A program made the position numbers and the translations under genes. This document shows positions 5,102-50,914 of a stretch of DNA of 56,045 nt, piece by piece. The stretch spans positions 1 to 56,045 of the forward strand of contig VMDI01000049.1 of the NCBI GenBank assembly GCA_008080915.1. Direction: 5' to 3'. Origin of the DNA: Gammaproteobacteria bacterium (lineage in GTDB: Bacteria > Pseudomonadota > Gammaproteobacteria > PS1 > Pseudothioglobaceae). The notes under the pieces were generated by a model. It did no database searches, was not told the origin of the DNA, and worked only from the letters and a program-made list of their open reading frames with translations. The first letter of the stretch is position 1; each line of letters begins with the position of its first letter.

Positions 5102-6022
5102 TTAAAAATGTTGATAGGAATAGCATTCCTCAACTGACCCACCTTTTACAGTAAATTTTATATCCTTGGTTATCTCACCTATACAGGTTAGGGGTAAGTT
5201 TAATTCTGAGGATATATCTTCAACTTTATTGCGCATGGACTTAGGGGCTGTAAAACACAATTCGTAATCATCGCCTCCAGCAAAAGGAACGCACCAATTA
5301 GACGAACTATCTACATAATCTTTGACATCATCAGACATTGGTAACTTTTCAAGGTCTATCTTGCAACCAACTCTTGACATGCTAAGAATATGTCCTAAGT
5401 CTTGATAGAGTCCATCAGATATATCTATGCAACTTGTTGCCACTGGAGTCAGCCTTTGTCCTAGTTCAATTCTTGGAGAGGGTCGATTTAATCTTAAAAG
5501 AGTGCTGTCATTAATCTTGAGCCCTTTATAGGCCATCGCGGCATCACCCAGTTCGCCCGATATAAAGATAAGATCGCCGGCCATTGCACCAGATCTTTGT
5601 AGCGCCAAACCCTTTTTAACTTCACCAAAAATTGATATAGATACATTAAGAGGACCTTTAGTCGTATCTCCACCAATAAGTCTTACATTGAAAGAATTAG
5701 AGAGCGCTTTTAAAGATTCTGAGAATTTTTGAAGCCAACTAGGATTGATCTCTGGAATAGTTAAAGACAAGGTAAAGAATCTAGGATTGGCTCCCATGGC
5801 AGCAATATCACTAAGATTCACAGCTAAAGCTTTATAAGCAATATCCTCAGGTTTCGTATCTTTTGTGAAATGAATACCCTCAACCAAGGTATCCATACTG
5901 GTCACAACAGAAGCATCATTATTGACATTAAGAATGGCACAATCATCACCAACGGATTTCTCAAGACCTGTGCCAGTTTCTGACCAACTAAAGAAATTTT
6001 TTATAGTGTCAAATTCATTCAC
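5102..6022 (-). CDS. thiL: Thiamine-monophosphate kinase
   Basis: 306 aa, AIR-synthase-like fold with GDDCAIL and IGGDTT motifs. Its stop abuts the dksA stop with zero spacer. Confidence 0.9.
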   Translation of the reverse strand: MNEFDTIKNFFSWSETGTGLEKSVGDDCAILNVNNDASVVTSMDTLVEGIHFTKDTKPEDIAYKALAVNLSDIAAMGANPRFFTLSLTIPEINPSWLQKFSESLKALSNSFNVRLIGGDTTKGPLNVSISIFGEVKKGLALQRSGAMAGDLIFISGELGDAAMAYKGLKINDSTLLRLNRPSPRIELGQRLTPVATSCIDISDGLYQDLGHILSMSRVGCKIDLEKLPMSDDVKDYVDSSSNWCVPFAGGDDYELCFTAPKSMRNKVEDISSELNLPLTCIGEITKDIKFTVKGGSVEECYSYQHF

Positions 6023-7106: not shown

Positions 7107-7944
7107 TTTTTCTCCTAAAAATCAGGTTGTCAATCAATCTTGTTTCACCTAGATATGTTGCACATAATAATATAATTTCATCTGTTTTATTATCGATATC
7201 CGTAAGGTCTTTGGAATTTCTTGCTTCAAGATAATCCAACTTAGAGAATTGTGATAGGTTATCTTTTGCCTTTTTAATAGAACTATCTAGATCAATACCT
7301 CTCAAAAAATCCGTTTTAATGCCTAATAAATTTTGGTAAATCTTTTTAGCGTTTTCACGATCATCAAAACTTAAATATTGATTCCTCGTACTCATTGCAA
7401 GACCATCTCTTTCTCTGATGATTTCATGAGAGATGACCTTGATATCATCTTTTCTATTCTTATTAATCAAATTAATAATCATTAACTGTTGATAGTCTTT
7501 TTCTCCAAATACAGCAATATCAGGATGAACAATATCAAATAAACGATTAACGACTTGAGCTACACCATTAAAGTGTCCAGGTCTCGTCTTAGCACATAGA
7601 ATAGTATCCAAAAATCCAAGTTCGTAACTTTCTAGGTCATTAGAAGGATAGATTTCTTCAACTGATGGAGTAAAAAGAATATCAATATCCAAAGTTTCTA
7701 AAAGGGAAATATCTTTTTCAAGTGTTCTGGGGTACTTATTTAGATCCTCGTTCTGGCCAAATTGAGTTGGGTTAACAAAAATACTCACTACCACCACATC
7801 TGATTTTTGTTGAGCTAATTTCATTAAAGCAAGATGACCCTCATGAAGACCCCCCATAGTTGGAACAAAAGAGACTTTTAACGATTTATCTTGAAGATGT
7901 CTTATTTTGAGACTTAAATCTTCTGCAGATTCATAAGTAATCAT
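7099..7944 (-). CDS. panC: Pantoate--beta-alanine ligase
   Basis: 281 aa with PTMGGLHEGHL signature. Sits in a panB-panC pair. Confidence 0.95.
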   Translation of the reverse strand: MITYESAEDLSLKIRHLQDKSLKVSFVPTMGGLHEGHLALMKLAQQKSDVVVVSIFVNPTQFGQNEDLNKYPRTLEKDISLLETLDIDILFTPSVEEIYPSNDLESYELGFLDTILCAKTRPGHFNGVAQVVNRLFDIVHPDIAVFGEKDYQQLMIINLINKNRKDDIKVISHEIIRERDGLAMSTRNQYLSFDDRENAKKIYQNLLGIKTDFLRGIDLDSSIKKAKDNLSQFSKLDYLEARNSKDLTDIDNKTDEIILLCATYLGETRLIDNLIFRRKNV

Positions 7945-8723
7945 TCGTAACTGTAATCAGCTGATGGAAATTTCCTGGATTTAACCTCGGAGATGAATAA
8001 TTTGACCGCTTCCTCAATAGATGAATTGCCAGTCATAAAATTTTTTACAAACTTAGGCTTTCTTCCTAGGTTGATATCTAACATATCATAAGAGACCAGC
8101 ACCTGGCCATCGCAGTTATTCCCAGCACCTATACCAATGGTTGGAATTGAGATACTTTCTGAAATCTCTTTTCCTAATTTGGTTGGAATGCATTCCAATA
8201 CCATCACCTCAACCCCTAACTCCTCAAGTAACTTGGCATCTTTAAGTATTTTTTGCGCAGATGCTTCTTCTCTGCCTTGAACTTTATAACCTCCCAACTC
8301 TTGAATGGATTGAGGTTGAAGACCAAGATGGCCACAGACAGGGATTTGTTCGTCTTGAAAACTTTTAAAGACAGCTTCACATTCCTCGCCACCCTCTATC
8401 TTAATAACTTGAGCACCAGCCTTTAAAAGGAGATTTGCATTTTTGATGGCATCATTAGGATTGCTATAGGTTTGATAAGGCATATCTGCAATTAACAATG
8501 AATTTTGAATTTTGTTAGCAACAGCCTGAGTGTGATAGCACATATCATCAATAGTCACTCCCAGTGTATTTTCCTCTCCCTTAATGACATTACCCAAAGA
8601 GTCTCCCACTAGAATAACATCGATTCCACATTGATCAAAAAGATCTGCAAATGAAGCATCATAAGCAGTCAAACAGGTAATGATTTCATGATTTTTGAAC
8701 TTTTTAAGGTCACTTAATTTCAT
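7941..8723 (-). CDS. panB: 3-methyl-2-oxobutanoate hydroxymethyltransferase
   Basis: 260 aa with LTAYD..FA...D..LVGDSLG pattern. 4-nt overlaps on both sides. Confidence 0.95.
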   Translation of the reverse strand: MKLSDLKKFKNHEIITCLTAYDASFADLFDQCGIDVILVGDSLGNVIKGEENTLGVTIDDMCYHTQAVANKIQNSLLIADMPYQTYSNPNDAIKNANLLLKAGAQVIKIEGGEECEAVFKSFQDEQIPVCGHLGLQPQSIQELGGYKVQGREEASAQKILKDAKLLEELGVEVMVLECIPTKLGKEISESISIPTIGIGAGNNCDGQVLVSYDMLDINLGRKPKFVKNFMTGNSSIEEAVKLFISEVKSRKFPSADYSYE

Positions 8724-9186
8724 AACTTAATTAGCTCTTGATCTTGGATACGTTCGATAAGTTTATCAATAGGTCCTAGTATAGGCACATTTAAATCAGG
8801 CTCAATCTCTTTTAAAGGAATCAAAACAAAAGCCCTATTCATCATTTCTGGATGAGGAATGACCAACTCTTTCGAGGCTACCACTTGTTTTCCATAAAGA
8901 ATAATGTCCAAATCTATAGTTCTAGCGCCCCACTTCTTCTCTCTAACTCTATGCTGATTGATCTCAATTAATTGACAAACTCTTAAAAGTTCAAGAGCAG
9001 TCAGATGGGTATTAACTTGACAAACTGCATTCAAATAATCTGGTTGATTTGAATGATCAATGGGCTTTGATTGGTAAAGACTTGACAGTGAGGTAACGGT
9101 TACATCCTCGACCTCATTCAAGGCAATCAATGCATTTTTAATTTGCTCTTTGGGGTTATTTAAATTTGATCCAAGTCCAATATAGG

Positions 9187-9193
<7 letters not shown>
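8720..9193 (-). CDS. folK: 2-amino-4-hydroxy-6-hydroxymethyldihydropteridine diphosphokinase
   Basis: 157 aa. HPPK pattern AYIGLGSN...KWGARTIDLDIILY...HPEMMNRAFVL. Confidence 0.9.
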
Positions 9194-10966
<1,773 letters not shown>

Positions 10967-11031
10967 TTAGAGGGATAGCGTTTAAAATTGAAAATAATTA
11001 ATATTAACTTCAAAAATTATACCATTTTGAC

Positions 11032-12267
11032 ATGAGCCTTAAGTTCTACCAGATACTCGGTTTTCTTATTCTTCCATTGGTTTTACTAAGAATTCTTTTC
11101 AAAGGATTTAAAAATAATGCCTACTGGAAAAGAATTCCTGAGCGGTTTGGTTTTTATTCTCATGTTGAAAAGAACCTTATCTGGATTCATTGCGTCTCTG
11201 TTGGTGAATTTATGGCTGCCAAGCCATTAATTAACAAATACCTTGAAACTGAGAAATTATTAATTACTTGCTACACCCCAACTGGTTATGAGGCAATCAG
11301 TCAAGCATATGGTAACAAAGTAATCCAAGCCTATTGTCCAGTTGACATTAAACCATTTGTTACCCACTTTATCAAAACCTACAAACCGAAAAAATGCATT
11401 CTTTTAGAGACTGAGATTTGGCCCAATATCATTCATGAACTGTCAAAAAATAAAATACCAATTAACCTTATCAATGCAAGACTTTCTCAGAAGTCATTTA
11501 ATAGTTATCAAAAGTTCTTATCAAATATATTGAGCAAAACTCTAAACAAAATTGATTTGATAGCTGCTCAAAACGAAGATAGTAAAAAAAGGTTAGTTTC
11601 ATTGGGAGCTAAGGAGAGTAATACTATAGTCACAGGCAATATTAAGTTTGATCAGAAAATTGATATCAATCAATCCCAACTAAGTGAAATAAAAAAGTTT
11701 ATTCAAGATCAACAGGTCGTTGTTTTTGCAAGTACCCACAATGATGAGGAAAAGCAAATTTTTGAAGCAATAGACAAATCTTCCTATCTTGAAAACACCC
11801 TAAAAATTATTATTCCTAGACATCCAGAGAGATTTAATGAGGTCTATAAACTTACAAAAAAATATGGTTACACATCCGCCAAACGCTCTGAAAAAGATAC
11901 TGGTGAATCCAATCTAGAGGTTCTTATTGGTGACTCTATGGGTGAGTTACCGGAGTATCTCTTTCTAGCTGATGTAGTTTTCATGGGTGGTAGTTTAGTG
12001 AAACACGGGGGCCACAATATGATTGAACCTGCCCTTTTAGAAAAACCGATTATTTACGGTCAACATGTATTTAACTTTGCCCAGATATCTAAAGAATTAA
12101 TCAATTCAGGAGGGGCAATTCAAGTTGATTCTGCAGATACTTTGGTTGCAAAAATAGAATCTCTATTAAATAACCCTAAAGAACGAGAAGAGTTATCGAA
12201 AAATGCTTATAAATTCGCGAAAAACCTTCAAGGATCGACCAACAAGTTATTTAAATTAATTAAATGA
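11032..12267 (+). CDS. waaA: 3-deoxy-D-manno-octulosonic acid (Kdo) transferase
   Basis: 411 aa with an N-terminal membrane anchor. HCVSVGE and GGSL..HGGHNMIEPA motifs are typical of WaaA/KdtA. Confidence 0.9.
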   Translation: MSLKFYQILGFLILPLVLLRILFKGFKNNAYWKRIPERFGFYSHVEKNLIWIHCVSVGEFMAAKPLINKYLETEKLLITCYTPTGYEAISQAYGNKVIQAYCPVDIKPFVTHFIKTYKPKKCILLETEIWPNIIHELSKNKIPINLINARLSQKSFNSYQKFLSNILSKTLNKIDLIAAQNEDSKKRLVSLGAKESNTIVTGNIKFDQKIDINQSQLSEIKKFIQDQQVVVFASTHNDEEKQIFEAIDKSSYLENTLKIIIPRHPERFNEVYKLTKKYGYTSAKRSEKDTGESNLEVLIGDSMGELPEYLFLADVVFMGGSLVKHGGHNMIEPALLEKPIIYGQHVFNFAQISKELINSGGAIQVDSADTLVAKIESLLNNPKEREELSKNAYKFAKNLQGSTNKLFKLIK

Positions 12268-12696
12268 CTAGTCTTTAGCACTCCAATTTTTTTGCATTTC
12301 GAAAAATAAAAAAGATGCGCTCCAGGTTATTAAAACAAAGCCTGCCAAGCCTTCCAATCCTACAAGAAATCGGATATCTCCAATAGGACTAATGTCCCCA
12401 AAACCTAGAGTAGAGAAACTGGTAAATGAGAAATAGACACTATCTAATAAGGAACCATCATAGTTACCTTGCAAAGTTCCCCAGTTTGGACTGTTGTGCA
12501 TAAAATAAAACGCAAGCCCATATAGCCAAATTTCAATAACATGAGCAATAAAAGCAATAATTACAACGGCTAACACACGCATTCGATGTCTTATTTTTAG
12601 AAGCGGTAGGAGTTTAGTAGAGCGGTACAGGAACTCGTAGTGAATTAAAACACTTAAAAGAACAACAAAAGCATTAACAGCTAAAACGCTCAGCAT
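12268..12696 (-). CDS. Small potassium-channel-like (Ion_trans_2-type) membrane protein
   Basis: 142 aa. TM helices flank a pore-helix plus filter-like STLGFGD. The stop codon directly abuts the waaA stop. Confidence 0.7.
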   Translation of the reverse strand: MLSVLAVNAFVVLLSVLIHYEFLYRSTKLLPLLKIRHRMRVLAVVIIAFIAHVIEIWLYGLAFYFMHNSPNWGTLQGNYDGSLLDSVYFSFTSFSTLGFGDISPIGDIRFLVGLEGLAGFVLITWSASFLFFEMQKNWSAKD

Positions 12697-24630: not shown

Positions 24631-24707
24631 CGGAGTGTAGCGCAGTCTGGTAGCGCATCTGGTTTGGGACCAGGTGGTCGGGGGTTCGAATCCCTCCACT
24701 CCGACCA
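24631..24707 (+). tRNA. tRNA-Pro (anticodon UGG)
   Basis: Cloverleaf by hand: acceptor CGGAGTG/CACTCCG, anticodon loop TTTGGGA, T-loop GGGGGTTCGAATCCCTC, encoded CCA. Close to E. coli proM. Confidence 0.92.
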
Positions 24708-24731
24708 GATTCTGCTGTCTAAAAAGTTTAT

Positions 24732-24808
24732 GCGCCCTTAGCTCAGCTGGATAGAGCAACGGCCTTCTAAGCCGTAGGTCAAACGTTCGAATCGTTTAGG
24801 GCGTGCCA
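24732..24808 (+). tRNA. tRNA-Arg (anticodon UCU)
   Basis: Acceptor GCGCCCT/AGGGCGT (G1-U72), anticodon stem ACGGC/GCCGT, loop CTTCTAA, T-arm AAACG-TTCGAAT-CGTTT, encoded CCA. Confidence 0.9.
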
Positions 24809-24814
24809 TTTTGT

Positions 24815-24891
24815 GGCGAGTGTAGCTCAGTTGGTAGAGCCCCGGATTGTGATTCCGGTTGTCGCGGGTTCGAGCCCCGTCTCTCGCCCCA
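24815..24891 (+). tRNA. tRNA-His (anticodon GUG, with G-1)
   Basis: Extra 5' G opposite C73, anticodon stem CCGGA/TCCGG, loop TTGTGAT, encoded CCA. One U-U mismatch at 6:67 in my hand fold. Confidence 0.88.
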
Positions 24892-47411: not shown

Positions 47412-47430
47412 GTATAAAGACTTGTTTACA
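47412..47430 (+). promoter_or_regulatory. Palindromic operator-like motif GTATAAAGACTTGTTTACA upstream of mini-protein gene A1
   Basis: Starts 50 nt upstream of the ATG at 47462. Matches the motif upstream of paralog A2 at 16 of 19 positions. Imperfect dyad TAAAGA-N2-TGTTTA. Confidence 0.5.
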
Positions 47431-47461
47431 AGTTAGGGTTTTATTACTACTGGAGTTATAA

Positions 47462-47704
47462 ATGAATAAATTAAGTATCTTATTTGCATCATTGTTTGCA
47501 TTTTCAATGAGTGTAAATGCTCATATGGCTGGTGAAAATACACCTAAACTACCTACCGTGAATGGTGGTACTGAAGCTCAAAAAGAGGCAGTTCGCCAGG
47601 GTGCTAAAGAGTTTTGTGAAGAAAAAGAAGATGATGAAAGAGAAGAGTGTGTCATGGACTTCTATGCGAATCATAATCTAGAAGAAGAGCCTAGCTGTGA
47701 CTAA
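47462..47704 (+). CDS. Secreted acidic 3-Cys mini-protein, paralog A1 (80-aa precursor, about 60 aa mature)
   Basis: Signal peptide MNKLSILFASLFAFSMSVNA, then HMAGE... Mature part is 51/60 identical to the product of 50609..50851. SD-like GGAG upstream. Has its own terminator. Confidence 0.8.
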   Translation: MNKLSILFASLFAFSMSVNAHMAGENTPKLPTVNGGTEAQKEAVRQGAKEFCEEKEDDEREECVMDFYANHNLEEEPSCD

Positions 47705-47723: not shown

Positions 47724-47747
47724 AAGCCGCTTATAGCGGCTTTTTTT
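47724..47747. terminator. Bidirectional Rho-independent terminator shared by A1 (+) and the convergent minus-strand operon
   Basis: Stem AAGCCGCT (47724-47731) / AGCGGCTT (47735-47742) with loop TAT. T7 follows on the plus strand; A/T-rich tail on the minus strand. Confidence 0.8.
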
Positions 47748-47758
47748 ATATCTGTCTA

Positions 47759-48637
47759 TTATTGATACAAATTAGAAAGCCAAGAATCAACTCTATCGAC
47801 AAGCTCTGTAGACATTGACTCCTCTTTGTAATAGTGATCTGCCTTCCCAACGACTAGTTGTATACTTTTGTCGGGTTTTTTCTGAGAAAGTTGCTTCTTT
47901 CTCTCTTCTGACATTCTTTTAACTCCTGGAAAGTCATTTTCTCCGAAGATATCTAATACTGGGGCCACCATTTTTTCGATAGGAAATGGCTTAATCAGCT
48001 TTTGTTTATAGTCAGTCGCGCCCATACCAATTCCCACATAGCTATTGAACTTAGAGTCGCCATACTTGTCAATGTAACTCATTGACATATGTGCTCCACA
48101 GCCATGCCCGATAAGATGGATATTATTCACCCCCTTTTCTTTTAAAAAGTCTACGGCAGCATCAATGCGCTCATGCGCATACGGAAAAATAGGAACATAA
48201 TCATAATACTTAGCCTCTTTATCTAACACTGGCATTTGAACGGATAGCGTATGCCACCCCTTATTAGCCAATCCAACTCTAAGCGGTTTGACGACAGTCG
48301 CCCAATTTGCATGATAACCTCTTGAGTGAAGCAAAATAACCGCACCCTTAGGTTTTTCCGCTTCAGATTCCATAAAGATGGTGAAAACTTTTCTACCGTC
48401 TTTGAGTGGCAAATATTCGACATCCCCATCCATGACAGCTTCTTCGATCTCCTTTATCATACGATCTTCTCGCTTAAAATCAGGCTGCTTATCGATAAAT
48501 TCATTGAAGTATTGTCTGAGTTGATTTGGATCAAACTCACCAAACATTGGAAGTTTTGGCATATTATCAAACCATAGCGCAGAAGCACTTAAAGAGACAA
48601 AAGCTCCCAAAAATATAATCAGTCTTGTAAATTTCAT
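47759..48637 (-). CDS. Secreted alpha/beta-fold hydrolase-like protein (DUF3530-like) with Cys at the nucleophile elbow
   Basis: 292 aa with signal peptide MKFTRLIIFLGAFVSLSASA. GAVILLHSRGYHANW oxyanion region, elbow LIGHGCGAH (G-x-C-x-G), later FGENDFP (Asp) and KADHYY (His). Confidence 0.75.
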   Translation of the reverse strand: MKFTRLIIFLGAFVSLSASALWFDNMPKLPMFGEFDPNQLRQYFNEFIDKQPDFKREDRMIKEIEEAVMDGDVEYLPLKDGRKVFTIFMESEAEKPKGAVILLHSRGYHANWATVVKPLRVGLANKGWHTLSVQMPVLDKEAKYYDYVPIFPYAHERIDAAVDFLKEKGVNNIHLIGHGCGAHMSMSYIDKYGDSKFNSYVGIGMGATDYKQKLIKPFPIEKMVAPVLDIFGENDFPGVKRMSEERKKQLSQKKPDKSIQLVVGKADHYYKEESMSTELVDRVDSWLSNLYQ

Positions 48638-49164
48638 TTAAATTCCCCCAACTTAATCAATGCATCCTCGGCTAAAGGGTGTTTATTTTTATAAGCCTCT
48701 TTTAACCAATATATGGCTTTCTCCTGATCACCTAATTCCAGAAGCAGTGAAGCCAAGTTATATTGGGCATATTCATCTTTGCCCTGTGAAGATATTGTCC
48801 ACCATTTTCTAGCCTTGTCTATATTTTTTTTTACTCCCCTGCCTTGGTAAAAAAGCATCCCTAATTCTGTTTGTGCATGATTCAAGCCTTGGAAAGCAGC
48901 CATGGATAGGTACTCATAAGCTCTAGTGTCATCCTTTTCAACACCCAGACCATGAAGATAGCTTAGTCCGATGTTATTTTGTGCAGGAGCGTAACCTAGG
49001 TCAGCTGATTTCATCATCAGATCAAATGCTTTTTTATTTTGACCCTTCTGAGAGTATTCAAACCCCTCTTTATAGAAATCTAGTGCCTCAGAGCTTGAGG
49101 CAAATGTGAAGTTATTAAGAAAAAAAAGGGACGCAATAAGCATCCCTTTAATTAGATTTTTCAA
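48634..49164 (-). CDS. Secreted Sel1-like repeat (SLR/TPR-type) protein
   Basis: 176 aa. Repeats of type A...GYAPAQNNIGLSYLHGLGVEKD..RA..YL..AA.QG...AQ..LG. The annotated start is TTG (49164); an alternative ATG lies at 49143. 4-nt overlap with the hydrolase gene. Confidence 0.75.
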   Translation of the reverse strand: MKNLIKGMLIASLFFLNNFTFASSSEALDFYKEGFEYSQKGQNKKAFDLMMKSADLGYAPAQNNIGLSYLHGLGVEKDDTRAYEYLSMAAFQGLNHAQTELGMLFYQGRGVKKNIDKARKWWTISSQGKDEYAQYNLASLLLELGDQEKAIYWLKEAYKNKHPLAEDALIKLGEFK

Positions 49165-49169
49165 CTGAG

Positions 49170-49832
49170 TTACTTCGTAGTTAAACCAAGAAGTTGCCAG
49201 TCGTTCATACCACCACGGTAGTACTTAATCTTGTCTTGTGGATAACCCATAGTCAATAAGGCTCTGATTGAAGCAGGAGACTGACCACACCATGAACCAT
49301 TACAGAACAAGTATAGAGTCTTCGCTTTATCGTAATTCAAAACACCATCCATGTCTTGAACACCGAAGTCTTTAACTAGGATATCAACTACAGCCATAGG
49401 ATCCTTAGCAAGTGCCTTAGAGTTAAGTTTAGTAAAAGGGACATTCACAGAACCTGGGATAGTGCCTTTCTTAACCCAACCTGGGGTACGAGCATCGACC
49501 AACATGATATTTGAATCACCGTCTGCCTTATCTCTAGCAGCGTGAATCATATCTAGCTCAGTAATTGTCTGAACTCTAGCTGGAGTAAATGGAGCAGTTG
49601 GTTGGATACAAAACGGAGGGCAAGGACGTGAAGTCTTTGCGAAATCTGGGTTAACAGTATTGTTTGTATTTTGATTACGAGAAATACCCGCAACAGTTCC
49701 AACACCCTTGACAATTGCCACTTTACCTACTGGTGAACAACCATTGTTCCAGTTGTTATCAGCGCCACAAAATGCATTTGCACCGAAAGTAAAAGCTGAA
49801 GCAGCAAAACCGATAAGTAATTGTTTTTTCAT
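49170..49832 (-). CDS. Periplasmic rhodanese-domain protein with CPPFC motif, paralog R1
   Basis: 220 aa with a signal peptide. KTSRPCPPFCIQPT segment, rhodanese fold (LVDARTP..W..GTIPGSVNVP) and active-site loop LFCNGSWCGQS. Confidence 0.85.
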   Translation of the reverse strand: MKKQLLIGFAASAFTFGANAFCGADNNWNNGCSPVGKVAIVKGVGTVAGISRNQNTNNTVNPDFAKTSRPCPPFCIQPTAPFTPARVQTITELDMIHAARDKADGDSNIMLVDARTPGWVKKGTIPGSVNVPFTKLNSKALAKDPMAVVDILVKDFGVQDMDGVLNYDKAKTLYLFCNGSWCGQSPASIRALLTMGYPQDKIKYYRGGMNDWQLLGLTTK

Positions 49833-49889: not shown

Positions 49890-50540
49890 TTACTTAGCTG
49901 TTAAACCAAGAGATTTCCAAGCATTCATACCACCACGGTAGTACTTGATCTTATCTTGTGGGTAACCCATAGAAAGAAGAGCTCTAATTGATGCTGGAGA
50001 CTGTCCACACCATGAACCATTACAGAACAAGTATAGAGTCTTAGCATTGTCATAATTTAGAACACCGTCCATATCTTTAACACCGAAATCCTTAGTCATG
50101 ATATCTACAACCGCCATAGGATCCTTAGCAAGTGCCTTAGAGTTTACTTTTGTGAATGGAACGTTAACAGAACCTGGGATAGTACCTTTTTTAACCCAAC
50201 CTGGGGTACGAGCATCAACTAAAACGATATTTGAATCGCCATTTGCTCTGTCTCTAGCAGCGTGAATCATATCTAGCTCAGTCACTGTATCAACAGCAGC
50301 TGGTAAGAACGGTTCAGTTGGCTGGATGCAGAATGGAGGGCAAGGACGTGAAGTCTTTGCGAAATCTGGATCGATTGTTGCACCGTTATCTTGGTTACGA
50401 GAAATGCCCGCAACTTCCATAACACCTTTAACAATACCTACTGGCTTAGCGCCTTTCTTGTTATGACCTTCAGCAATCGCGCCAGTAGATGCTAATGCAA
50501 CCGCAACTGCAGCTGAAGTGAAAATTGTACGAAGTTTCAT
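49890..50540 (-). CDS. Periplasmic rhodanese-domain protein with CPPFC motif, paralog R2
   Basis: 216 aa with a signal peptide. 149/173 residues identical to R1 over the region from AGISRNQ to the C-terminus (manual count). Same CPPFC and CNGSWCGQS motifs. Confidence 0.85.
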   Translation of the reverse strand: MKLRTIFTSAAVAVALASTGAIAEGHNKKGAKPVGIVKGVMEVAGISRNQDNGATIDPDFAKTSRPCPPFCIQPTEPFLPAAVDTVTELDMIHAARDRANGDSNIVLVDARTPGWVKKGTIPGSVNVPFTKVNSKALAKDPMAVVDIMTKDFGVKDMDGVLNYDNAKTLYLFCNGSWCGQSPASIRALLSMGYPQDKIKYYRGGMNAWKSLGLTAK

Positions 50541-50608: not shown

Positions 50609-50851
50609 TTAATCGCAGCTTGGTTCTTCTTCCAGATTGTGATTAGCATAAAAATCCATTACACACTCTTCTCTTTTTTCGTCCTCTTTGTCAGAACAAA
50701 ACTCTTTTGCTCCTTTGCGAACTGCCTCTTTTTGTGCGTCAGTTCCACCATTAACGGTCGGTAGTTTAGCTACCTTTTCACCTGCCATATGCGCATTAAC
50801 ACCAAGCGATAGCACGCACGCAGCAGCAAACATTACTGCCAGTTTATTCAT
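50609..50851 (-). CDS. Secreted acidic 3-Cys mini-protein, paralog A2 (first gene of the minus-strand operon)
   Basis: Signal peptide MNKLAVMFAAACVLSLGVNA, then HMAGE... SD AGGAGA upstream. Same three Cys and identical C-terminal 20 residues as A1. Confidence 0.8.
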   Translation of the reverse strand: MNKLAVMFAAACVLSLGVNAHMAGEKVAKLPTVNGGTDAQKEAVRKGAKEFCSDKEDEKREECVMDFYANHNLEEEPSCD

Positions 50852-50873
50852 TCTTGTCTCCTAATATGAATGA

Positions 50874-50914
50874 GTGTAAAGACATCTTTATACCACGTCA
50901 TATAAGGATTTCAA
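50874..50914 (-). promoter_or_regulatory. Sigma70-type promoter of the A2-R2-R1-Sel1-hydrolase operon with overlapping palindromic operator-like motif
   Basis: On the minus strand: TTGAAA (50914-50909), 16-nt spacer, TATAAA (50892-50887). The dyad GTATAAAGA-TG-TCTTTACAC (50893-50874) has perfect core TAAAGA/TCTTTA and overlaps the -10. Confidence 0.5.

What the first reader, a model, noticed from the sequence alone, without database searches (positions are those of the whole stretch)
47462..47704. Old, purified paralog pair of acidic 3-Cys mini-proteins in inverted orientation bracketing the cluster
A1 (47462..47704, +) and A2 (50609..50851, -) encode 80-aa precursors. Their predicted mature parts (HMAGE...EEEPSCD, 60 aa) are identical at 51/60 positions, and the last 20 residues are identical.

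At the DNA level they differ at many synonymous sites. The longest exact run I find is 18 nt (CAAAAAGAGGCAGTTCGC). The duplication is therefore old and both copies are under purifying selection.

Both copies conserve:
- the predicted cleavage site VNA/HM, which would expose an N-terminal His-Met
- three Cys (EFC, EECVMDF, PSCD)
- a strongly acidic composition

A free N-terminal His plus Met and thiols also fits a metal (for example Cu) binding peptide, so a chaperone or carrier role for either sulfur or metal is open.
Basis: partly seen in the sequence, partly recalled or inferred. Interest (0 to 1): 0.65.

Follow-up and report, generated by a model that had tools for sequence, protein, structure and literature searches.

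The report
Cys-tailed mini-proteins paired with rhodaneses
Two old, diverged copies of a small secreted acidic protein flank an operon of periplasmic rhodanese-like enzymes in a SUP05-clade marine sulfur bacterium. Their invariant feature is a cysteine next to the last residue, and the same tail sits on unannotated peptides beside this rhodanese type in many marine bacteria, pointing to an undescribed peptide partner, probably a sulfur carrier.

Summary
A1 and A2 are 80-aa paralogs: 51/60 mature residues identical, the last 20 identical, 76% nucleotide identity. dN/dS is 0.07 and dS is near saturation.

Neither Pfam nor NCBIfam holds the family. In 45 SUP05/Thioglobaceae genomes one copy always heads the operon small protein–rhodanese(–rhodanese)–Sel1–DUF3530. 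That is the A2 position. A1 is a lineage-specific extra copy with its own RBS and terminator.

The N-terminal His-Met is not conserved, so the N-terminal-His metal idea fails as a family trait. The three Cys are conserved only within the SUP05 form.

I scanned metagenomes with the rhodanese, not the peptide. In 58 of 67 loci a signal-peptide ORF lies directly upstream and ends in [E/D]-P-x-C-[D/E]-COOH. Non-SUP05 loci (GC 27–65%) carry 42–84-aa peptides with no helical domain. The universal unit is a secreted acidic tail with a penultimate Cys, plus a rhodanese with four invariant Cys (CPPFC, CNGxWCGQSP).

Best reading (inferred, untested): a gene-encoded periplasmic thiol acceptor or sulfur carrier for that rhodanese. 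It works like the SoxY or DsrC C-terminal arms, or like glutathione for RDL1/TSTD1, but belongs to none of those families. Redox-relay and metal-binding roles remain open.

The parts
47462..47704 (+). A1: 80-aa small acidic protein. It is the lineage-specific extra copy, monocistronic, lying between the DUF3530 and DUF455 genes.
   Evidence: No copy sits at this position in any of 45 SUP05 genomes. Close metagenome relatives L052-L056 do carry it there.
47462..47521 (+). A1 predicted Sec signal peptide (residues 1-20, MNKLSILFASLFAFSMSVNA).
   Evidence: The sequence shows a K-containing n-region, a hydrophobic core (maximum Kyte-Doolittle 2.35 over 10 aa) and VNA before H21. An N-terminal hydrophobic segment is present in all full-length homologues. 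This is a heuristic; no SignalP run was made.
47672..47701 (+). A1 C-terminal tail, residues 71-80 (HNLEEEPSCD), with the penultimate Cys79.
   Evidence: The tail is invariant in SUP05 orthologues. It generalises to [E/D]PxC[D/E]-COOH in all 58 peptides found upstream of rhodanese genes. It has no secondary structure in the AF2 model.
47412..47430 (+). Short upstream motif GTATAAAGA..TTTACA, shared with the A2 upstream region. It may be a remnant of a duplicated promoter or 5'UTR.
   Evidence: Pairwise alignment of the 140-nt upstream regions and the sequences. Apart from this motif the flanks are not alignable. The promoter function is inferred, not shown.
47452..47455 (+). A1 ribosome-binding site GGAG, 6 nt before the ATG.
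   Evidence: Sequence.
47724..47742 (.). Terminator-like hairpin (8-bp stem, 5 G-C pairs) between the convergent A1 and DUF3530 genes. It is followed by TTTTTAT on the + strand.
   Evidence: This is a consensus scan only; the total number of such sites in the region is not above the shuffle expectation.
50609..50851 (-). A2: 80-aa small acidic protein, first gene of the operon. This is the ancestral position shared by all SUP05 genomes.
50858..50862 (-). A2 ribosome-binding site AGGAG.
   Evidence: Sequence.
50875..50893 (-). Upstream motif GTATAAAGA..TTTACA, shared with A1.
49890..50540 (-). RhdA: secreted rhodanese-like protein with four invariant Cys (CPPFC at 67/71, CNGSWCGQSP at 173/178).
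   Evidence: Pfam PF00581, E = 2.6e-14. The Cys are invariant in 70/70 SUP05 sequences and 33/33 distant ones. Cys173 aligns with the catalytic Cys position of yeast RDL1, PDB 3d1p. Foldseek top hits are sulfurtransferases.
49170..49832 (-). RhdB: a paralogous secreted rhodanese-like protein with the same four Cys. Its N-terminal extension FCGADNNWNNGCSP carries two more Cys.
   Evidence: It is absent from some symbiont genomes.
48634..49164 (-). Secreted Sel1-repeat (TPR-like) protein with no Cys. A possible docking partner.
   Evidence: Pfam PF08238, E = 2.9e-22. It co-occurs with the hairpin form of the small protein in 56/57 loci, against 1/15 loci with short peptides. These loci are phylogenetically non-independent.
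47759..48637 (-). Secreted DUF3530 alpha/beta-hydrolase-fold protein with a single invariant Cys180 in HGCG.
   Evidence: Pfam PF12048, E = 8e-27. The Cys is present in 36/36 sequences. The usual Ser nucleophile position aligns to Gly. The family is described as lacking a catalytic triad (PMC11878206). DUF3530 also lies next to the rhodanese in some non-SUP05 loci.

Best explanation
A1 and A2 are Sec-exported periplasmic mini-proteins. The mature 60-aa protein has a short disordered N-terminus, a two-helix hairpin and a flexible, strongly acidic tail ending Pro-Ser-Cys-Asp-COOH.

The working part is the thiol of the penultimate Cys. It serves as the dedicated acceptor and carrier of sulfane sulfur (a peptide persulfide) for the co-encoded periplasmic rhodanese-like enzymes RhdA and RhdB. 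Their catalytic Cys sits in the loop CNGSWCGQSP. In effect the protein is a gene-encoded, glutathione-like thiol for the periplasm, presented on a swinging arm.

A2 is co-transcribed with the enzymes. A1 is a later duplicate with its own RBS and terminator. It probably raises, or separately regulates, the supply of a component needed in stoichiometric rather than catalytic amounts.

The Sel1-repeat protein probably docks the helical hairpin, which is a SUP05-specific addition.

**Shown:** gene structure, purifying selection, invariant tail, invariant linkage to this rhodanese type, and rhodanese fold with an aligned catalytic Cys.

**Inferred:** export, persulfidation, direction of transfer, sulfur source and sink, and the roles of Sel1 and DUF3530.
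For: 1. **Linkage in SUP05 genomes.** In 45 SUP05-clade genomes the small gene directly precedes RhdA in a conserved five-gene cluster. This includes Ca. Thioglobus autotrophicus CP137632.1. The cluster stays intact even where the flanking genes differ (L065).
2. **Linkage found without using the peptide.** I scanned metagenomes with the rhodanese only. In 58 of 67 loci with upstream DNA, an ORF ending C[D/E] lies just upstream on the same strand, and all 58 end [E/D]PxC[D/E]. Only 62 of 2,679 ORFs in those loci have that ending.
3. **Only the tail is shared.** Between the SUP05 proteins and the 42-84-aa peptides of non-SUP05 loci (GC 27-65%), the common parts are a signal peptide and the tail.
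4. **Selection on the tail.** 10 synonymous and 0 non-synonymous changes in the last 20 codons; dN/dS is 0.07 overall.
5. **Structure.** AF2 gives helices 38-52 and 57-70 and an unstructured tail 71-80.
6. **The partner is a sulfurtransferase-type protein.** It has PF00581. The best sequence and fold matches are yeast RDL1 (3d1p), SseA, CoADR-RHD, persulfide reductase and TSTD1. From my own knowledge, RDL1 and TSTD1 use the small acidic thiol glutathione as sulfane acceptor.
7. **Known sulfur carriers look like this.** SoxY (GGCGG-COOH; Sauve et al. 2007, cited in PMC6067878) and DsrC (penultimate Cys; own knowledge) present their Cys on C-terminal arms.
8. **A plausible need.** SUP05 lacks soxCD (PMC5315479). 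For such organisms a periplasmic rhodanese, SoxL, has been proposed to remove sulfane sulfur from SoxY (PMC3368242).
9. **Same compartment.** All five operon products have signal-peptide-like N-termini.
Against: - There is no experimental evidence of any kind.
- The rhodanese active-site loop is atypical. A second Cys replaces the usual Arg (CX4C), and there is a second invariant pair, CPPFC. This pattern suits thiol-disulfide chemistry at least as well as classical sulfane transfer.
- The module also occurs in low-GC surface-ocean bacteria and in genomic contexts without visible sulfur-oxidation genes. A role specific to dissimilatory sulfur oxidation is therefore not implied.
- Some rhodanese homologues have no adjacent peptide. 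These include orphan paralogues (L090, L093, L106, L107, L109), L112 and L144, and alphaproteobacterial plasmid homologues.
- The most divergent hairpin-form members (P0150, P0153) are not next to a rhodanese.
- A lone thiol in the oxidising periplasm would need to be kept reduced, and no reductant is encoded in the cluster.
- The window itself contains only housekeeping genes where I checked.
Confidence: 0.45

Rival explanations
1. Thiol-disulfide or sulfenate redox relay. The tail Cys forms a mixed disulfide with one of the two invariant Cys pairs of the rhodanese-like protein. The peptide would act as a periplasmic redox buffer, a resolving thiol or a regulator of the enzyme, not as a carrier of sulfane sulfur.
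For: The partner has two invariant closely spaced Cys pairs, CPPFC and CNGxWC, with Cys in place of the usual active-site Arg. From my own knowledge, the periplasmic rhodanese PspE can feed disulfide-bond formation through a Cys sulfenate. The same linkage data apply as for the main explanation.
Against: No DsbD-, DsbB- or thioredoxin-like partner is in the cluster. The best sequence and fold matches are sulfurtransferases. A single-Cys peptide cannot itself cycle as a dithiol/disulfide couple.
Confidence: 0.2
2. Metal (for example Cu, Zn, Cd or Hg) binding chaperone or buffer. The acidic tail with its Cys, and in the hairpin form the other two Cys and the conserved His of the HN motif, would bind a metal ion in the periplasm.
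For: The mature A1 and A2 have 15-17 acidic residues in 60, plus 3 Cys and 2 His. His71 is nearly invariant in the hairpin form. One short peptide gives a weak, sub-threshold CopL-family match (E = 0.0017, 19 bits against a cut-off of 40). Stand-alone divergent members lie within a few kb of FixS/FixG/CopB-type genes.
Against: Only one Cys is universal across the wider family. No metal transporter, reductase or metal-sensing regulator is in the conserved cluster. The invariant neighbour is a rhodanese, not a metal-handling protein.
Confidence: 0.1
3. Precursor of a modified peptide (RiPP-like cofactor or signal). The rhodanese-like enzyme would chemically modify the C-terminal Cys, and the product would be released or used as a cofactor.
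For: The architecture is that of a small precursor gene directly upstream of an enzyme, with a short invariant C-terminal core. Several SUP05 loci have a hairpin plus U-run after the peptide gene, as in precursor-peptide operons (not statistically significant). The rhodanese gives weak sub-threshold hits to the 'PQQ-dependent catabolism-associated CXXCW motif protein' model.
Against: No radical-SAM, YcaO, LanM-type, protease or exporter gene is in the conserved cluster. The leader is an ordinary Sec signal peptide. The 60-aa folded hairpin form under strong purifying selection along its whole length is unlike a disposable leader.
Confidence: 0.07
4. The ORFs are not expressed genes. The similarity would be a remnant of a duplicated non-coding or decaying segment.
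For: There are no expression data. Gene callers disagree on the start (80 aa against 59 or 74 aa).
Against: dN/dS is 0.07 with saturated synonymous sites. The frame, signal peptide and tail are conserved across 45 genomes and across GC contents of 27-65%. Both copies have an RBS.
Confidence: 0.01

Closest known systems
SoxY, the sulfur-carrier subunit of SoxYZ
   Same: Periplasmic. It carries sulfur on a Cys in an invariant, flexible C-terminal peptide ('swinging arm'). It works with dedicated sulfur enzymes in sulfur oxidisers, including SUP05.
   Different: SoxY is an Ig-like beta-sandwich protein that ends in GGCGG and pairs with SoxZ. A1 and A2 are helical hairpins (or, in other taxa, bare peptides) that end in EEPxC[D/E]. 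They have no SoxY Pfam match, and their neighbour is a rhodanese, not SoxZ, SoxAX or SoxB.
DsrC / TusE
   Same: A small sulfur-relay protein whose functional Cys is the penultimate residue of a flexible C-terminal arm. A second Cys lies upstream.
   Different: DsrC is cytoplasmic, has the DsrC fold and has 10 residues between the two Cys. A1 and A2 are secreted and give no DsrC Pfam hit. Their second Cys lies 15 residues upstream and is absent from the short forms.
Glutathione as acceptor of the single-domain rhodaneses RDL1 and TSTD1 (thiosulfate:glutathione sulfurtransferases)
   Same: RhdA's closest solved relative by sequence and fold is RDL1 (3d1p), and TSTD1 is also among the fold matches. 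The acceptor there is a small acidic Cys thiol, chemically like the ..EEPxC[D/E] tail.
   Different: Here the thiol would be ribosomally made, Sec-exported and encoded next to the enzyme. The enzyme has an extra N-terminal region with CPPFC and an atypical CX4C loop.
SoxL and Sud (periplasmic rhodanese-like sulfur or polysulfide transferases)
   Same: Periplasmic rhodanese-fold proteins proposed or shown to move sulfane sulfur between carriers in organisms lacking SoxCD (PMC3368242).
   Different: No dedicated peptide partner is described for them. I did not compare their sequences directly with RhdA or RhdB here.

Membership tests
SoxY sulfur carrier | SoxY domain (Ig-like beta-sandwich) detectable by profile | tested here: not met
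   No Pfam or NCBIfam hit at E <= 0.1. The AF2 model is a two-helix hairpin.
SoxY sulfur carrier | C-terminal GGCGG motif | tested here: not met
   The tail is EEEPSCD; the family consensus is [E/D]PxC[D/E].
SoxY sulfur carrier | Adjacent soxZ partner gene | tested here: not met
   The neighbours are rhodanese, Sel1 and DUF3530 genes.
DsrC/TusE | DsrC-family domain detectable by profile | tested here: not met
   No Pfam or NCBIfam hit.
DsrC/TusE | Penultimate C-terminal Cys on a flexible arm | tested here: met
   Cys79 of 80 is invariant in all members. The tail is unstructured in the AF2 model. This is a resemblance only.
DsrC/TusE | Cytoplasmic location | tested here: not met
   A signal-peptide-like N-terminus is present in all full-length members. 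This rests on a heuristic.
Rhodanese superfamily (partner proteins RhdA and RhdB) | PF00581 above the gathering score, with a Cys at the catalytic position | tested here: met
   51-54 bits against a cut-off of 22.2. Cys173 aligns to the catalytic Cys position of 3d1p. The Foldseek top hits are rhodaneses.
Rhodanese superfamily (partner proteins RhdA and RhdB) | Canonical active-site loop C-X4-[R/K] or C-X5-R | tested here: not met
   The loop is C-N-G-S-W-C-G-Q-S-P, with Cys where RDL1 has Arg.
   His21 is replaced by D, N, A or S, or is absent, in many orthologues.
Twin CX9C (CHCH) helical-hairpin proteins | A CX9C motif in each of the two helices | tested here: not met
   There is one Cys at the end of helix 1 and one in helix 2, with variable spacing of 10-11 residues across the loop.
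RiPP precursor peptides | Adjacent dedicated maturase (radical SAM, YcaO, lanthionine synthetase and the like) and a leader peptidase or exporter | tested here: not met
   None is present in the conserved cluster or its flanks.
Sulfane-sulfur carrier function (persulfide on the tail Cys) | Demonstrated S-sulfhydration by the partner enzyme | not testable with these tools
This needs biochemistry.

The most novel reading that the evidence does not exclude
Many marine Proteobacteria, including the globally abundant SUP05 sulfur oxidisers, secrete a ribosomally made, glutathione-like peptide thiol defined by the C-terminus ..EEPxC[D/E]. It would be the obligate co-substrate of a large, uncharacterised family of four-Cys periplasmic rhodaneses. 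That would make it a genetically encoded low-molecular-weight thiol and persulfide carrier for the periplasm. In this reading SUP05 has grafted the tail onto a helical hairpin that docks to a Sel1-repeat scaffold, and one lineage has duplicated it to adjust dosage.
Probability: 0.3. Interest if true: 0.8.

Novelty: new variant of a known kind. Interest (0 to 1): 0.66.

Why it matters
SUP05/Thioglobaceae are among the main sulfur oxidisers of oxygen-minimum zones, vents and chemosynthetic symbioses, and they lack SoxCD. How sulfane sulfur is handled in their periplasm is still unresolved, both on its way to and from SoxY and stored sulfur and on its way to the cytoplasmic Dsr system.

A conserved five-gene periplasmic cluster is an obvious candidate for that missing step. 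Its first product is an unannotated protein with a carrier-like Cys arm, it is retained even in reduced symbiont genomes, and it is present in cultured Ca. Thioglobus autotrophicus.

More widely, the EEPxC[D/E] peptides are annotated only as 'hypothetical protein', or are missed or mis-started by gene callers. They accompany a rhodanese family of at least 7,900 sequence clusters. Defining the pair would give a function to a large block of marine 'rhodanese-like domain-containing protein' annotations. It might also reveal a gene-encoded periplasmic thiol.

Tried and rejected
- **Family scans of A1 and A2.** Pfam and NCBIfam gave nothing. The same scans on five short peptides gave only sub-threshold noise.
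- **Fold search with the A1 model.** Foldseek against PDB found no match with E <= 0.001. A two-helix hairpin is too simple to be informative.
- **PDB sequence search with DUF3530.** Only weak lipase or alpha/beta-hydrolase hits. These place Gly, not Cys, at the nucleophile position. I therefore dropped the idea of a Cys-nucleophile hydrolase acting on the tail. This agrees with PMC11878206.
- **Gene conversion as the cause of the identical tails.** Rejected: the last 20 codons differ at 10 synonymous sites.
- **Literature.** Full-text searches for SUP05, rhodanese and Sel1, for DUF3530, and for the motif strings CPPFC, EEPDCE, EEPSCD and CNGSWC found nothing on this module. The supplementary tables of the Bathymodiolus azoricus proteome paper are not held, so I could not check whether its abundant 'Rhd2' is this rhodanese.
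- **RNA elements.** Rfam on the whole window found only three tRNAs. Hairpins in the peptide-Rhd spacers are not better than shuffled sequence.
- **Plasmid collection.** Only about 40%-identical alphaproteobacterial rhodaneses, without the peptide.
- **AF2 model of RhdA.** Mean pLDDT 62, with the N-terminal 60-70 residues below or near 50. No coordinates are returned, so I could not judge the spatial relation of CPPFC to the active-site loop.
Full report
**1. The observation**

A1 (47462..47704, +) and A2 (50609..50851, -) each encode 80 residues. They share 51 of 60 predicted mature residues and all of the last 20. At DNA level they are 76% identical. 24 codons differ synonymously and 19 non-synonymously, and the longest exact run is the 18-mer CAAAAAGAGGCAGTTCGC.

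Nei-Gojobori estimates for the mature part are dN = 0.084 and dS = 1.17, so dN/dS = 0.07. The last 20 codons have 10 synonymous and no non-synonymous differences. The duplication is old, both copies are under purifying selection, and gene conversion does not explain the identical tails.

**2. Gene context in the window**

A2 is the first gene of a minus-strand operon. The genes in order are:
- A2
- RhdA (49890..50540)
- RhdB (49170..49832)
- a Sel1-repeat protein (48634..49164)
- a DUF3530 alpha/beta-fold protein (47759..48637)

A1 lies on the other strand and converges on the 3' end of the DUF3530 gene. It has its own GGAG ribosome-binding site, a 237-nt upstream spacer and a hairpin plus T-run at 47724..47742.

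All six products begin with a positively charged, then hydrophobic segment of signal-peptide type (a heuristic). The upstream regions of A1 and A2 share only a short motif, GTATAAAGA..TTTACA.

The rest of the window that I scanned holds ordinary housekeeping genes. The flanks (ndk, HU, smpB, rluE, DUF455, rnhA, asnB, leuC) are typical of a gammaproteobacterial chromosome.

**3. The family**

Pfam and NCBIfam have no model for A1 or A2. Three searches define the family:
- A word-indexed search of 5.8 billion proteins found 21 clusters, all from metagenomes.
- An exhaustive profile search of 1.84 billion representatives found only 12 clusters at 50% identity.
- A scan of one genome per GTDB species found 45 loci. 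Every named one is from the SUP05 clade: Ca. Thioglobus, Ruthturnera, Thiodubiliella and Bathymodiolus symbionts.

In all of these loci the gene order is asnB-rnhA-[small gene]-Rhd-(Rhd)-Sel1-DUF3530, followed by convergent DUF455-rluE. The same holds in Ca. Thioglobus autotrophicus CP137632.1.

Each of those genomes has one copy, at the A2 position. None has a copy at the A1 position. Close metagenomic relatives of the window (L052-L056) do have both copies in the same inverted layout. In a neighbour-joining tree the A1-like and A2-like sequences form sister clades, each already diversified. A1 is therefore a lineage-specific duplicate that has been kept for a long time.

**4. What is and is not conserved**

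Within the SUP05 form, several features are invariant or nearly so, while the rest of the protein falls to about 45% identity:
- the three Cys
- the motif E-C-[VA]-x-[DN]-[FY]-[FY]
- the last ten residues, HNLEEEPSCD

The genome scan used LEEEPSCD as one of its two search patterns, so invariance of the tail in those 45 loci is partly ascertainment. The pattern-free searches show the real range: HNLDEEPSCD, HNLDEEAPCD, HNYEGEPSCD, YNLEEEDGCD, HNYEGDIDCD..PSCE. In every case the penultimate Cys and a terminal Asp or Glu are kept.

The predicted cleavage site and N-terminal His-Met are not conserved. Many orthologues read ..FA/DAKDG....LA/DKDDG.. or ..FA/NIPALG... That removes the basis for an N-terminal-His metal site.

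AlphaFold2 (mean pLDDT 69, about 85 over residues 41-70) predicts helices 38-52 and 57-70 and no structure for residues 71-80. Foldseek finds nothing similar in the PDB.

**5. The partner enzymes**

RhdA and RhdB have a rhodanese domain (PF00581) preceded by about 70 residues that contain FAKTSRPCPPFCIQP.

Four Cys are invariant: the CPPFC pair and the CNGxWCGQSP pair. They are present in 70/70 SUP05 sequences and 33/33 distant ones. The second set was selected with those motifs, so its invariance is partly ascertainment.

The first Cys of CNGSWC aligns with the catalytic Cys position of yeast RDL1 (3d1p). The second replaces the usual Arg.

The AF2 model (pLDDT 62) matches sulfurtransferases best: RDL1, SseA, CoADR-RHD, persulfide reductase and TSTD1.

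The family is large, with at least 7,900 clusters at E <= 1e-20. Where it is named at all, it is annotated only as 'rhodanese-like domain-containing protein' or 'rhodanese-related sulfurtransferase'.

**6. The key extension**

To avoid circularity I scanned metagenome contigs with an alignment of the rhodanese, not of the small protein. The scan returned 80 loci, with rhodanese identity from 82% down to 47% and GC content from 27% to 65%.

Of these, 67 have at least 330 bp upstream of the first rhodanese match. In 58 of the 67, an ORF ending in C[D/E] stops within 0-182 nt of the rhodanese start on the same strand. All 58 end in [E/D]-P-x-C-[D/E].

The background is low. Only 62 of 2,679 ORFs of at least 30 aa in these loci have that ending, and 58 of those are the ones at this position. 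In the window, only A1 and A2 among 558 ORFs end in C[D/E].

The nine misses break down as follows:
- Two are artefacts of my criterion (L088, L096).
- Five are orphan rhodanese paralogues in other genomic contexts (L090, L093, L106, L107, L109).
- Two are genuine exceptions (L112, L144).

In the 27 non-SUP05 loci the ORF is only 42-84 aa. It has a signal peptide, a short charged linker and the tail, for example ..KKEEEEEPDCE..GGEEEEPECD or ..KPTDEEPDCE. It has no helical hairpin, and 11 of the 27 have a single Cys in their last 40 residues.

These peptides exist as called genes in public data, named only 'hypothetical protein'. The GC-27% form is on more than 100 contigs, including Tara Oceans assemblies. 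They match no Pfam or NCBIfam model.

The conserved unit is therefore [secreted peptide ending EEPxC(D/E)] plus [four-Cys rhodanese]. The SUP05 protein is that tail mounted on a helical hairpin with two more Cys.

**7. Accessory genes**

The Sel1-repeat gene accompanies the hairpin form in 56 of 57 loci with enough downstream DNA. It accompanies the short form in 1 of 15. This fits Sel1 binding the hairpin, but the hairpin loci all belong to one clade, so the association is not independent evidence.

DUF3530 accompanies the module in SUP05 and, divergently transcribed, in some non-SUP05 loci (L120, L123, L138, L145). Its SUP05 orthologues have one invariant Cys in HGCG. However, the Ser-nucleophile position aligns to Gly, and the family is described as lacking a catalytic triad (PMC11878206). 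I do not assign it a reaction.

**8. Most likely mechanism**

The facts point to the tail thiol as the functional group and the rhodanese as its partner. Known sulfur carriers present their reactive Cys in the same way:
- SoxY on a C-terminal GGCGG 'swinging arm' (Sauve et al. 2007, cited in PMC6067878).
- DsrC and TusE on a C-terminal arm with a penultimate Cys (my own knowledge).

The closest solved relatives of RhdA, RDL1 and TSTD1, pass sulfane sulfur from thiosulfate to glutathione, a small acidic Cys thiol (my own knowledge).

SUP05 lacks SoxCD (PMC5315479). In Allochromatium, which also does not use SoxCD, the periplasmic rhodanese SoxL is thought to strip sulfane sulfur from SoxY (PMC3368242).

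I therefore propose that A1 and A2 are periplasmic, gene-encoded thiol acceptors and carriers that RhdA and RhdB persulfidate, or de-persulfidate, at Cys79. A2 is made together with the enzymes. A1 supplies extra or separately regulated carrier. I put this at about 0.45.

The broader statement, that the protein is a Cys-dependent partner of the adjacent rhodanese, I would put at about 0.75.

**9. Rivals**

- **Thiol-disulfide or sulfenate relay (0.2).** Favoured by the two invariant Cys pairs and the Arg-to-Cys change in the active-site loop.
- **Metal binding (0.1).** Compatible with the acidic, Cys- and His-containing composition and with a few weak hints. It loses its main argument because the N-terminal His is not conserved and only one Cys is universal.
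- **RiPP-like precursor (0.07).** Fits the operon shape, but no maturase, protease or exporter is present.
- **Non-genes (0.01).** Excluded by the substitution pattern.

Evidence that cuts against a strictly sulfur-oxidation role:
- The module is present in low-GC surface-ocean bacteria and in contexts without visible sulfur genes.
- Some rhodanese homologues lack an adjacent peptide.
- Two very divergent hairpin-form members stand alone.

**10. Comparison with known systems, and novelty**

The module works like SoxY and DsrC-type arms, and like the rhodanese-glutathione couple. It is a member of none of these families. It has no SoxY or DsrC domain, a different tail motif, a different fold, different partners, and in the DsrC case a different compartment (see Membership tests).

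I found no description of the peptide, of the tail motif or of this rhodanese subfamily in the searchable literature.

I class it as a new variant of a known kind: a C-terminal-Cys carrier working with a sulfurtransferase. If the 'encoded periplasmic glutathione surrogate' reading proves right, it would be further from anything known.

**11. Verdict**

The finding is real.

The paralog pair itself is a local peculiarity. The more important result is the widespread, unannotated peptide-rhodanese module that it belongs to.

Noticed in passing
window 47462..47704; P0282, P0011, P0012: Public gene calls for A1-type genes often start at the internal Met22 and give 59 aa. One such call sits on a 56,045-bp NCBI contig, the same length as this window. 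A2-type genes are sometimes called at Met7 (74 aa). Both starts remove the signal peptide, while homologues support the 80-aa reading.
   Followed up: partly
window 47759..48637 (DUF3530): The SUP05 DUF3530 orthologues have a single, invariant Cys in the motif HGCGAHM (36/36). The position that aligns with the Ser nucleophile of lipases is Gly, and the Cys follows it. Whether this is a pseudo-enzyme with a functional thiol is open.
   Followed up: partly
window 49170..49832 (RhdB): RhdB-type paralogues carry an N-terminal extension with a conserved HNWNNG-like motif. In the window and some relatives this extension has two additional Cys (FCGADNNWNNGCSP). RhdB has been lost in several symbiont genomes.
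   Followed up: partly
L045 (Thiodubiliella endoseptemdiera JACCHT010000023.1), about 7460..12290: The same MAG holds a second, much more divergent copy of the whole cluster (RhdA 37%, DUF3530 29% identity). Its small gene has lost its N-terminal part and reads through the usual stop (..EEEPSCDCHQQR..). It may be a decaying paralogous cluster or a binning contaminant.
   Followed up: no
L015 3286..5178 and L020 (same position): About 2 kb has been inserted at exactly the DUF3530/DUF455 intergenic site where A1 sits in the window. The insert carries two genes: a 372-aa multi-pass membrane protein and a 262-aa secreted protein. I did not identify them. The site seems to accept insertions repeatedly.
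   Followed up: no
L090, L093, L106, L107, L109: These hold SUP05-like rhodanese paralogues (64-77% identical to RhdA or RhdB) in unrelated, lower-GC contexts without an adjacent tail peptide. L090 has a 40%-identical small-protein relative 2.6 kb away on the other strand.
   Followed up: no
L120 3760..5118, L123 3794..5206, L130 1027..2439: In several non-SUP05 loci a 450-470-aa protein lies next to the peptide-rhodanese pair. Its C-terminal ..ERTLYRHIKRLR helix-turn-helix looks like that of a sigma-54-type activator with an N-terminal sensor domain. L130 also has what look like a response regulator and a histidine kinase downstream. I did not verify any of these with profile searches.
   Followed up: no
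L147 4875..5465, L148 4953..5543 (Salipiger and Rhodobacteraceae plasmids): Alphaproteobacterial homologues (about 40% identity) keep the motifs CP[DN]FC and CNGxWCGQSP. They have two further Cys in an insertion (GCExDFDGWxC) and no upstream tail peptide. An internal Cys pair might replace the peptide there.
   Followed up: partly
L057..L060 (gene at 6001..6243 of L057) and L061..L064 (6001..6228): The most divergent hairpin-form members (tails HNYEGEPDCD and HNYEGDIDCD) are stand-alone genes, not next to a rhodanese. They lie within a few kb of cytochrome-c maturation (CcmE/F/H), TusA, FixS/FixG/FixH and CopB-type genes.
   Followed up: partly
L003 about 8280..8300, L007 and L032 at the same position: A short hairpin followed by a U-run lies between the small gene and RhdA in several SUP05 loci. 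It might attenuate read-through and give excess peptide transcript. It folds no better than shuffled sequence, and the window's own spacer lacks a clear U-run.
   Followed up: partly
window 24631..24891: An ordinary cluster of three tRNA genes (Pro-TGG, Arg-TCT, His-GTG). These are the only Rfam matches in the window.
   Followed up: yes
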